Source: Paraspadella gotoi
Taxonomy: Eukaryota > Animalia > Chaetognatha
Assembly (NCBI GenBank): GCA_051294375.1
Contig: CM119264.1
Span: 15,092,682 to 15,156,681 of the forward strand
Length of the DNA stretch: 64,000 nucleotides
Direction: 5' to 3'
Shown here in pieces: positions 28,661 through 31,600 of this stretch (position 1 is the first letter of the stretch; each line of letters begins with the position of its first letter). The translations under genes were made by a program, and so were the position numbers. The notes under the pieces were generated by a model. The model did no database searches. It was not told the DNA's origin and saw only the letters and a list, made by a program, of their open reading frames with translations.

Positions 28661-31600
28661 TCACACCGACGTCTCACCCGACGGGGATTCACCGTTCACA
28701 GCGCGGCCACCTTTCACGGCAGTGCCATCGGTTAAAGCGATGCCATCTGTTGCGGTAGTATCCTGAAAGAAAAAACAACAAAAGACCAATTGTATTTCAT
28801 CAGGTTAAAAAAATCACTTTCTTCCTTTCTTGTCGTACCTCCTTTCCCTTCCCTTTCCTTTGTTTTTTAAGCGTCGCGTCTTCGCTTTGTGACGGTTTGT
28901 TTTGGCGAAACAAGGTGTCGTTTCTTTGATTGAAGGCCGACTCCTCGGGAGACCTGGTAAGATTAATTACTTTTTTAAAATTTATAATGTGTTATGTTTC
29001 TTTCATTTCGTTGTGTTTGAATTTTTAGGAAAAACAGTTTTTGTGGGACATGTTTCGACTCTAAGCTTCTGAGTCTTCATCAGCATTTGAAATCAACAGG
29101 TTTCTCTCTTTCACATTAAGTTAAGAGAGAGAGAGAGAGAGNNNNNNNNNNAGAGAGAGAGAGGAGAGGAGAGGAGAAACTCACTCTATGATAATACCCT
29201 CTCAGCTTATGACAAGTCAATGACTCGATCAGCTTTTGCCCAGCTGGGGGGGGCAGCTCATTTTGATCTCTTTCTTTATATATATTTATCTAATTCTAAA
29301 CTAACCTATCTCACACCACTTATACTCCTTTTTCACATTTCACTCTTAATTAATAAGCTAAGTTATTGATCTTGTTGTCATTACTCGTGTAATATTAAGT
29401 TTGCCTAATATATTCACTATATCCTTGTTGTACATTGCCAAATGTAATTATTTTTCTATCTCTCTTCTATTTCTCTCTTCAAAAAATTCAACCTATTTTT
29501 CTTCTTAACTGTCCTTACCTTCACCTGTCCTCATATCTGACAACGATTCTTTCTTGATTCTTTGTTGGAAGCTTTCTCACACTCTCTCTCTCTCTCTCTC
29601 TCTCTCTCTCTCTCTCTCTCTCTCTCTCTCTCTCTCTCTCTCTCTCTCTCTCTCTCTCTCTCTCTCTCTCTCTCTCTCTCTCTCTCTCTCTCTCTCTCTC
29701 TCTCTCTCTCCGTAACTTAATGTTAAAGAGAAAAAGCTGTTGATTTCAATTGCTGATGAAGACTCTAAAACTAAGAGTCGAAACATGTCCTAAAGCTATC
29801 TATTAAAAATCGTTGTCCCACAAAAACTGTTTTTCCTAAAAAAAATTATTTTTTATTTTTTAGATTTAAAATAAATAATTTAAAATATTTTTGTGTTAAA
29901 TATTTAAATATAATATTATTTATCTGTTTAGTGTTGTCTTCTGGAAATAGAGGGTGCATCTACACAACACAAGGTTAGATTACTTTCTGTTCCAGTTTTC
30001 TAATAGGTATGTTCTTCGAAATTGAAATCTTCTTTTTTCTAAATTTTACGCGCAAAACCGAAGCTTAGCCAAATTCGAAATAATAGTCATCAAAAGATGT
30101 TTTCAATGGCCAAGGAATTCATTTTATTTGTCGCACTTTCGACGGCAGCGACAGCAGCTGCGTCTGCGGCGGCGAACGCGGGGACGCGCGAAAGATCAAA
30201 AAGTTCGACGCGTTGGAGGCGAAATTCTGCAGACGCTGAAAAGAAAGACGTTGACGAAGCCGTCGACGAGGCCTTTCAAGAAATCAACGCAGCAGTCGAT
30301 GCAGCCACCGAAAAAGTCGTCGAGGCAGCGGCAGCCGACATTCTTCGGCGACACCCAAACTTCAAACTCGAGAACAATGATGTCGGAGGCAACCAGGAGA
30401 ACGAGCGAAAAATCGATAAAATGGCTAAAGATTTTTTGAAAACCGGAAAATTGCCTGAATTTCTCAAAGGACATGCGAGACGGAACAAGGCGGGAAGAAC
30501 CACGAAGCGAAAGGGAGGCGTCGCTAAACTTCCCTCGGGAAACGCGCTAACCGAGCGAGAAGACGCCGCCAACGTCGCCGCCGCAGAATATTTGCGGCGG
30601 CTTCACGAGGCCGCCGCCGCTTCGTCGGTGCCGATTGAAAATGATTTGTCAGATCTCGAAGAAATCTCGCACCGAGAGAAGGCAGTCGAAAAGGCAGCGA
30701 GATCGGTTTTAAAAAGTTTGGAATTGAAAGAAAAGAATGGCGGCAGAAAAAGCAAAAGAGGTAGCCGCGGTGGTGATCTTGTTGAAAGCTTGGACCAAGA
30801 ACAGAAACTCGAAGAAGTAGCTCAGTTTTATCTCGACATGATCGATAGCGGACGACCGAAACGGCGACAGAGACCGAAACAGGGAAACGCCCATTCGCGT
30901 ATAGACGAGCGCGAGCGCGAAGCCCAATTGGAACGAGTGGCCAACGATCTCCTGCAGCATCCTGATCGGGTGCGAATCCTTCCTGCGTCGTCGCACGACT
31001 CGACTCCGACGACAACGCCTCGGCCGGACGACAGTCGTAAGGATACTCAAGAAAAGATTGAGCTAGCAGCCGCCGATTGGTTAAGTCGTCGAGAGATGAA
31101 GAAGGCGGACGACCGAGTGAAGAAAGGAAGGAGAGAAGAGAGTAGAGGATCGAGGGACGAATGGAGCATTGTCGAGGCGAAATTGGAAGAGGAGGCCGCT
31201 AAGTATTTGGAGGCGAAGTTGAAGCGGGAATCGAATGGAAGAGGATGATAAAATTAAACGTCAAACTCAACGACGTGGTCCCTTTTCGATGGCAATTACC
31301 AGAAAAATCGATTAATTAAAACAAAAAAAAAGACATACTTGGCGACTTGTAGTGTTGTCACGTTGAAATCCTCCTGAACGTAACCTTGTGACTTGTAAGT
31401 CTTTTGCAAGGATTTGATCAACCACAAACGACGTAAAACCTGTAGATATTTAAACATTGTTTGTTACTTTTTCTATAAAAAATTAAATAAACACCAATGT
31501 AGTGAAAATTAAATATTAAATATATATGAAATTGGTACAACCAATATAAAAATTTATCCATTCATTTAGTAAATAAGCTATCTTTCTCCTGACTTTGGAC

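What the first reader, a model, noticed from the sequence alone, without database searches (positions are those of the whole stretch)
30097..31248. Nested antisense secreted precursor with eight repeated amphipathic helices separated by basic cleavage clusters
Seen: an intronless 383-aa ORF inside a catenin intron, with a signal-like N-terminus and eight variants of E-x-x-[VIL]-E-x-[AV]-A-x-x-[YWFIL]-L: EKVVEAAAADIL, ERKIDKMAKDFL, EDAANVAAAEYL, EKAVEKAARSVL, EQKLEEVAQFYL, EAQLERVANDLL, QEKIELAAADWL, EAKLEEEAAKYL. These are separated by RWRR, RR, KRK, RKSKR, RPKRR, KKGRR and KR. Known: prohormone convertases and furin cut at such sites, and a Gly before a basic site (DMIDSG-RPKRR, KKG-RR) can be an amidation donor. 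Inference: an unrecognised polypeptide precursor (neuropeptide, granin-like, antimicrobial, toxin or adhesive secretion) that releases a family of helical peptides. I do not recognise the family.
Basis: partly seen in the sequence, partly recalled or inferred. Interest (0 to 1): 0.8.

Follow-up and report, generated by a model that had tools for sequence, protein, structure and literature searches.

The report
Granin-like secreted protein, eight repeated helices
A transcribed, intron-free gene lying on the opposite strand inside an intron of a catenin gene encodes a protein with eight copies of one short motif predicted to form helices and no relative found in the databases searched; it is likely secreted, likely cut at basic sites, and would work like the vertebrate granins that pack secretory granules, which is untested.

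Summary
The ORF is real: 383 aa, inside a 2,385-nt GT-AG intron of a minus-strand ARM-repeat catenin gene, covered unspliced by RNA contigs (strand not shown). An unsupervised search recovers exactly the eight repeats (score 19.9; 1,000 shuffles 9.8±0.9). No homolog was found, but the databases are thin for this lineage. Predicted fragments are acidic to neutral with unlike ends, which fits granin/VGF-type granule cargo better than a ligand family, antimicrobial or toxin. Helices of chromogranin A, secretogranin II and VGF fit the repeat profile (7.8-12.9 bits; own repeats 9.4-18.7), but weakly and post hoc; Pfam and acidity tests for granin membership fail. The scan had not noted this on other DNA.

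The parts
30097..31248 (+). Intronless ORF, 383 aa (P0001), 42.8 kDa, pI 9.25, no Cys
30097..30162 (+). Likely signal peptide (hydrophobic core residues 8-14; -3/-1 sites at residues 15-26, 28 and 30; cut site not fixed)
   Evidence: heuristic only
30211..30222 (+). RWRR, furin-type R-x-R-R site after a short basic pro-piece (cleavage inferred)
30310..30345 (+). Repeat 1 (aa 72-83), end of a long acidic helix 41-85; followed at once by RR
30403..30438 (+). Repeat 2 (aa 103-114)
30559..30594 (+). Repeat 3 (aa 155-166); followed at once by RR
30676..30711 (+). Repeat 4 (aa 194-205)
30745..30759 (+). RKSKR basic cluster (aa 217-221), preceded by Gly; amidation possible only if cut at RK
30799..30834 (+). 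Repeat 5 (aa 235-246)
30853..30867 (+). RPKRR basic cluster (aa 253-257)
30919..30954 (+). Repeat 6 (aa 275-286); 7 of 12 identical to the chromogranin A C-terminal helix; followed by a Ser/Thr/Pro linker that has RK but no KR/RR
31048..31083 (+). Repeat 7 (aa 318-329)
31174..31209 (+). Repeat 8 (aa 360-371), then KR and a C-terminus ending in Arg-Gly
29977..31329 (.). Stretch covered by listed unspliced RNA contigs of run X1; candidate poly(A) signals at 31253 and 31315
28954..31338 (-). Host intron (2,385 nt, GT...AG) of an ARM-repeat catenin gene
31339..31439 (-). Catenin exon upstream of the host intron; abuts the 3' end of the nested transcript

Best explanation
The gene is a transcribed, single-exon gene nested in a catenin intron whose product likely enters the secretory pathway and likely serves as granin-like cargo of secretory granules, being predicted to be a disordered chain with eight short helices that would pack or sort the granule content and would then be cut at basic sites. 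Steps: (shown) separate unspliced transcript and open frame; eight in-register copies of E-x-x-[VILA]-[ED]-x-[AVM]-A-x-x-[YWFILV]-L; motif kept at protein level while the DNA of the repeats has diverged. (Predicted) each copy is a three-turn helix, acidic at its start, with a nonpolar stripe centred on an invariant Ala, joined by flexible linkers. (Inferred) the signal peptide takes it to the ER; furin removes the basic pro-piece at RWRR; the multivalent helices drive sorting and condensation in the trans-Golgi and immature granule; prohormone convertases and carboxypeptidase then release 28-73-residue acidic-to-neutral fragments, some of which may signal, as granin fragments do.
For: Repeats far above chance and found without supervision; DNA repeats decayed to one 25-nt pair at 72% inside the ORF, so the motif is likely under selection. 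Model: separate helices, no fold, pTM 0.21. KR/RR in 8 of 9 intervals, none inside a repeat. Fragments acidic to neutral, unlike in length and ends, as granin peptides are in PMC4857386 Table 1 (passage). Three granin helices printed in that table fit the repeat profile at 9.4 (chromogranin A), 12.9 (secretogranin II) and 7.8 bits (VGF), against 9.4-18.7 for the protein's own repeats left out in turn. Chromogranin A also ends in Arg-Gly with a helix just before. Granins have a signal peptide, pairs of basic residues cut by convertases, and aggregate to form granules; several prohormones need a charged alpha-helix for sorting (passages of PMC10906782, PMC8773586, PMC7966131).
Against: The whole protein is basic (pI 9.25, net +7), whereas granins are acidic (recalled). 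No Pfam granin match, whole or in nine pieces. The granin 12-mers were picked after the likeness was noticed; chance per 500-aa Glu- or helix-rich protein is 0.03-0.04, 0.17-0.23 and 0.35-0.42, and an unrelated family (QSGamide precursors) also holds AAEYL. Dibasic sites are not enriched in number. No signal-peptide predictor was run; no homolog, no cell-type data and no peptide evidence were available; RNA strand not shown.
Confidence: 0.4

Rival explanations
1. A multi-copy peptide-hormone precursor: each helix is released as a ligand, likely for a secretin-class receptor whose outer domain binds a helix through the invariant Ala and Leu.
For: One repeat per fragment in 6 of 7 repeat-bearing fragments; the first two fragments are 41 and 42 aa; repeats 1, 3 and 7 end within one residue of RR. 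Invariant Ala8 and Leu12 and near-invariant Glu1 suggest one binding groove. Chaetognath neuropeptides are unsampled (PMC8557429 passage).
Against: Fragment ends are out of register and no repeat-bearing fragment ends in Gly at KR/RR cuts; multi-copy spiralian precursors seen in the supplement of PMC8557429 repeat near-identical peptides between KR sites. A nemertean DH44/ELH helix scores -11.8 bits on the profile (one 12-mer only). No Pfam hormone match.
Confidence: 0.2
2. An exocrine structural secretion (adhesive, egg cement, gamete coat or epidermal matrix): a polyampholyte whose acidic helices and basic linkers coacervate; most basic sites are not cut.
For: K+R 20% and D+E 18% in alternating blocks; dibasic counts at chance level; Ser/Thr/Pro linker without KR/RR between repeats 6 and 7; chaetognath-specific structural and epidermal cell types exist (PMC12460157 section 6), if the organism is one.
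Against: Placement of KR/RR between repeats is non-random at P=0.016; only 3 Tyr and no Cys, so little chemistry for cross-linking; strict motif conservation is more than a bulk glue needs (inference).
Confidence: 0.2
3. Not secreted: the N-terminal helix is a membrane anchor with a basic cytosolic flank, and the eight helices are docking motifs for a partner such as the D/D domain of PKA regulatory subunits (AKAP-like scaffold).
For: All 8 repeats fit the first half of the AKAP consensus LxxxAxxIVxxAIxxA by residue class (consensus from PMC3682517 passage; test). The 19-residue hydropathy peak is 1.85, the model has one helix over residues 4-27, and the segment is followed by five basic residues before RWRR ends.
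Against: 0 of 8 repeats has both hydrophobic residues of the second half, and 1 of 8 has the last Ala; AKAPs need a 16-residue helix. The strongly hydrophobic core is only 7 residues, followed by many signal-peptidase-type sites. No Pfam AKAP or PDB AKAP-peptide match.
Confidence: 0.12
4. A precursor of antimicrobial or venom peptides.
For: Secreted multi-helix precursors with basic cut sites are a known layout for such peptides (recalled).
Against: Repeats are net -3 to +1 with mean hydrophobicity near zero; trimmed repeat-bearing fragments are -9 to +1; no Cys; no family match.
Confidence: 0.04
5. Not a protein-coding gene: a repeat-derived or chance frame read through in catenin pre-mRNA.
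For: No homolog anywhere; low language-model recognition, 1231; RNA strand not shown.
Against: 383 codons open; coding-type GC pattern; protein-level motif at about 11 SD above shuffles with decayed DNA repeats; contig depth 210-235 over the ORF against about 2 in two intronic bins.
Confidence: 0.02

Closest known systems
Granins: chromogranin A, secretogranin II, VGF (PMC4857386 Table 1, PMC6099210 table, PMC10906782, PMC8773586; passages read)
   Same: Signal-like N-terminus, hydrophilic chain of about 400 residues without a fold, several basic cut sites, unlike fragments, short helices of the form E-x-x-L-E-x-x-A-x-x-L (repeat 6 shares 7, 5 and 6 of 12 residues with the CgA, SgII and VGF helices), C-terminal Arg-Gly as in CgA.
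   Different: Basic overall (pI 9.25); eight in-register copies of one motif; no Cys loop; no Pfam or sequence-search match; 7B2/secretogranin V is the only granin-named precursor in the spiralian lists of the passages read.
DH44/ELH/CRF precursors of spiralians (PMC8557429 supplement passages)
   Same: Helical peptides of roughly 30-45 aa between dibasic sites.
   Different: No LS[IV]xxxL start, no C-terminal L-G-[KR]R amide; the one DH44 12-mer tested scores -11.8 bits.
AKAP anchoring helix, LxxxAxxIVxxAIxxA (PMC3682517 passage)
   Same: First nine positions fit by class in 8 of 8 repeats.
   Different: Second half not met in any repeat; AKAPs are cytosolic, and this protein likely has a signal peptide.
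QSGamide precursors of molluscs (PMC8557429 supplement passages)
   Same: Five-residue identity AAEYL with repeat 3.
   Different: Single-copy peptide with a Cys ring and SG-amide; P0001 has no Cys. Shows how easily this helix matches by chance.

Membership tests
Granins (CgA/CgB/SgII/VGF) | N-terminal signal peptide | tested here: inconclusive
   Hydrophobic core FILFVAL and many -3/-1 sites; no predictor available
Granins (CgA/CgB/SgII/VGF) | Several dibasic convertase sites | tested here: met
   11 KR/RR sites; not enriched in number but spread over 8 of 9 intervals
Granins (CgA/CgB/SgII/VGF) | Acidic, Glu-rich chain (recalled as defining) | tested here: not met
   pI 9.25, net +7, Glu 11%; only the trimmed fragments are acidic to neutral
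Granins (CgA/CgB/SgII/VGF) | Sequence homology (Pfam model or search hit) | tested here: not met
   No granin family at E<=10 for the whole protein or nine pieces (filters drop most matches above about 0.1); 0 hits among 1.84 billion proteins at E<=0.001
Granins (CgA/CgB/SgII/VGF) | Short granin-type helix | tested here: inconclusive
   Three 12-mers score 7.8-12.9 bits; chance per 500 aa 0.03-0.42 in Glu- or helix-rich backgrounds; chosen post hoc
Granins (CgA/CgB/SgII/VGF) | Mostly unfolded chain with local helices | tested here: inconclusive
   Single-sequence model, pTM 0.21, separate helices; low confidence is expected without an alignment
Granins (CgA/CgB/SgII/VGF) | Storage in dense-core granules; aggregation at low pH and Ca2+ | not testable with these tools
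   Needs localisation and biochemistry
DH44/ELH/CRF precursors | LS[IV]xxxL start and amidated C-terminus; Pfam match | tested here: not met
AKAP (RII-binding helix) | 16-residue LxxxAxxIVxxAIxxA helix | tested here: not met
   First half 8 of 8; both second-half hydrophobic positions 0 of 8
Multi-copy amidated neuropeptide precursor | Copies share a C-terminal motif followed by G-[KR]R | tested here: not met
   No repeat-bearing fragment ends in Gly at KR/RR cuts
Linear cationic antimicrobial or cytolytic peptide precursor | Cationic, strongly amphipathic mature peptides | tested here: not met
   Net -3 to +1 per repeat; 3 of 8 above the 80th percentile of moment

The most novel reading that the evidence does not exclude
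This is a protostome (arrow-worm) counterpart of chromogranin A, secretogranin II and VGF: one 12-residue 'granin helix', present once or a few times and unrecognised as shared in vertebrate granins, is here repeated eight times, exposing the minimal unit that sorts and condenses dense-core granule cargo, either as a deep homolog or by convergence.
Probability: 0.2. Interest if true: 0.75.

Novelty: new variant of a known kind. Interest (0 to 1): 0.45.

Why it matters
In the papers searched here no protostome chromogranin-, secretogranin II- or VGF-type protein turned up, and chaetognath neuropeptides are named as unsampled (PMC8557429; the genome paper's main text has no occurrence of 'neuropeptide'). 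If this protein is granule cargo, its eight natural variants of one helix give a ready test of which residues drive sorting and condensation, a question that vertebrate granins blur because they share little sequence. If it is a ligand precursor, it is a new peptide family. If neither, it is one more lineage-restricted secreted repeat protein, which animals have in numbers. The nesting in an intron is ordinary.

Tried and rejected
Homolog searches, all empty: word search near length, 0 of 7,997 candidates at E<=0.1; shorter proteins, 0 of 4,342 at E<=1; exhaustive phmmer, 0 at E<=0.001; ESM Atlas whole and residues 222-383, no usable hit; metagenome contigs, 0 of 597 candidate stretches; exact look-up absent; PDB sequence best E 0.79, repeat profile best E 0.64; Foldseek none at E<=0.001; Pfam pieces gave 6 weak hits (E 0.012-0.35), all under cut-off and unrelated to each other. 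Longer (fused) forms of P0001 were not searched with the word index. A control with one catenin exon found only 1 relative among 1,415 candidates, so absence of homologs is weak evidence. A search for that relative's contig, to look into the same intron, found 0 of 204. Runs X3 and X4 (other organisms of the same study) gave no long piece on the ORF at 85%. No whole genome was held, so paralogs were sought only in the window: none. The repeat alignment was too variable for a locus scan. A fold of four copies of residues 347-383 gave no verdict (score 0.02); it is no evidence either way. Five of six short repeat words had no match in the spiralian neuropeptide supplement; AAEYL matched QSGamide precursors. 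Rejected: DH44/ELH, QSGamide, full AKAP helix, cationic antimicrobial or toxin precursor, alternative catenin exon (spliced RNA and P0002 skip it). The genome paper's supplementary spreadsheet, which may hold cell-type markers for this gene, was too large to read.

Full report
Observation. The frame at 30097-31248 on the plus strand gives 383 residues and a stop. Its GC content is 0.53, with 0.60/0.45/0.53 by codon position, against 0.27 and 0.31 in the flanks. The minus strand around it holds an ARM-repeat catenin (Pfam Arm in two exons; the delta-catenin/p120 type is recalled from its motifs, not tested). Run X1 is RNA, since its contigs skip CT..AC introns. One X1 contig ends at 31337 and continues with letters that lie at 28922-28951; a spliced protein from a related organism, P0002, crosses the same junction. 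The host intron is 28954-31338, 2,385 nt, GT...AG, and the ORF lies wholly inside it. Listed X1 contigs cover 29977-30987, 30989-31048 and 31019-31301 without joints (8 of 65 laid X1 contigs are listed); depth is 210-235 there and about 2 in two intronic bins. A marine metatranscriptome of another study holds one exact 156-nt piece at depth 2, weak but separate. Contigs cannot show the strand; plus-strand transcription is inferred from the frame.

The repeats. Spacing is 31-52 residues. Ala8 and Leu12 are invariant; position 1 is Glu in 7 of 8, positions 4 and 11 are nonpolar in 8 of 8, position 5 is Glu or Asp in 7 of 8. At DNA level only repeats 6 and 8 still align (25 nt, 72%), so the duplications are old and the motif is likely kept by selection. 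A single-sequence model puts each repeat in its own helix with low-confidence linkers and no overall fold (mean pLDDT 62, pTM 0.21). Only 3 of 8 repeats have a high hydrophobic moment; what they share is a nonpolar stripe around a central Ala, an acidic start and, in 5 of 8, a basic residue within two positions after the last Leu.

The cut sites. K+R make up 20% of the protein, and the numbers of KR, RR, RxxR and Gly-dibasic sites are what shuffles give (P 0.15-0.59). Their placement is less ordinary: KR or RR occurs in 8 of 9 intervals around the repeats (P=0.016) and never inside one (joint P=0.0075; 20,000 shuffles with motif anchors fixed; post hoc). The exception is between repeats 6 and 7, which has only RK after a Ser/Thr/Pro linker. 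Cutting at KR/RR gives repeat-bearing fragments of 41, 42, 28, 51, 33, 73 and 29 residues with net charge -9 to +1; none ends in Gly. The N-terminus has a seven-residue hydrophobic core and many -3/-1 sites, then a basic piece ending in RWRR; no signal-peptide predictor was available.

Relatives. None was found by word search (0 of 7,997 and 0 of 4,342 candidates), exhaustive phmmer, ESM Atlas, metagenome contigs (0 of 597), PDB sequence or fold or Pfam. A control tempers this: a catenin exon from the same locus found just one relative.

How it likely works. The anatomy is that of secretory-granule cargo: signal-like start, furin-type site, unfolded chain, repeated charged helices, cut sites between them, fragments with unlike ends. 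Granins have a signal peptide, are cut at basic pairs, and aggregate at low pH and Ca2+ to form granules; several prohormones are sorted by a charged helix (passages of PMC10906782, PMC8773586, PMC7966131, PMC6899468). I recalled a likeness to the end of chromogranin A and checked it in print: Table 1 of PMC4857386 (passage) and a table of PMC6099210 (passage) give peptides of chromogranin A, VGF and secretogranin II. One 12-mer from each scores 9.4, 7.8 and 12.9 bits on the repeat profile, within or just under the 9.4-18.7 of the protein's own repeats left out in turn; repeat 6 shares 7, 6 and 5 of 12 residues with them. This is suggestive only. The chance of such a match in a 500-residue Glu- or helix-rich protein is 0.17-0.23, 0.35-0.42 and 0.03-0.04, the motifs were chosen after the fact, and QSGamide precursors share five residues with repeat 3 by what is surely chance. 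Membership fails on acidity (pI 9.25) and on Pfam. So it may work like a granin (0.4) without being shown to be one.

Rivals. A family of released ligands (0.2) is supported by one repeat per fragment in 6 of 7 fragments and by invariant residues, but the ends are out of register and unamidated, and a DH44/ELH helix from the supplement of PMC8557429 (passages) scores -11.8 bits. An exocrine structural polyampholyte (0.2) fits the charge blocks and the chance-level dibasic count. A membrane-anchored AKAP-like scaffold (0.12) fits the first half of the consensus LxxxAxxIVxxAIxxA (PMC3682517 passage) in 8 of 8 repeats but the second half in none. Antimicrobial or venom peptides (0.04) do not fit the charge. 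A non-coding artefact (0.02) does not fit the frame, the motif or the RNA.

What is in print. Searches for chaetognath neuropeptide precursors and for invertebrate granins listed no description of such a protein. PMC8557429 says chaetognaths lack deeper neuropeptide sampling and lists 7B2/secretogranin V in its spiralians (passages); PMC6209648 shows the same gene in sea urchin (passages). The main text of PMC12460157 has no occurrence of 'neuropeptide' or 'nested' (section 6 read); its spreadsheet of markers could not be read and may bear on this gene. PMC9785887, PMC10602379 and PMC3743005 were seen as passages only and added nothing decisive. The library lacks most subscription papers.

Verdict. 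A real, expressed, lineage-restricted gene with a well-kept eightfold helix motif; likely a secreted, processed precursor of granin-like design. Kind known, family not: new variant of a known kind, interest 0.45. The bold reading, a protostome granin that exposes a minimal sorting helix, has probability 0.2 and would deserve 0.75.

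Noticed in passing
window 35054-39134 (-): A second gene, spliced in RNA (CT..AC joints, one 2,308-nt contig), on the same strand as the catenin and apparently inside its long intron between the exons near 41277 and 34790; its 442-codon frame has no Pfam match. The catenin junction across it was not seen in RNA.
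   Followed up: partly
window 29022-29842: A foldback structure in the same intron upstream of the ORF: inverted arms of 78 nt (90%) and 29 nt (100%), with AG and CT microsatellites inside the arms; possibly a MITE-like element.
   Followed up: partly
window 31249-31440: The nested transcript ends at or overlaps the catenin exon 31339-31439 in antisense; the contig over this exon has depth 141 against 75 at the next catenin joint. An A-rich tract near 31317-31332 could also prime oligo-dT.
   Followed up: partly
window 29930-30006 and 30009-30068: A dispersed repeat at the 5' end of the RNA cover, followed by a 19-codon upstream ORF.
   Followed up: no
window 24787-27077 (+): Gene with Cys-rich repeats and a fibrinogen C-terminal domain (Pfam E 2e-10), converging on the catenin 3' end.
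   Followed up: no
window 6249-6779, 9176-10081, 43536-44387 (-): Three further low-complexity frames without Pfam match; the one at 9176-10081 has a tandem heptad-like Ala/Asn/Val repeat.
   Followed up: no
window 60916-61281 (-): Exon with an NBR1-type Ig-like domain (PF16158, E 2e-25).
   Followed up: no
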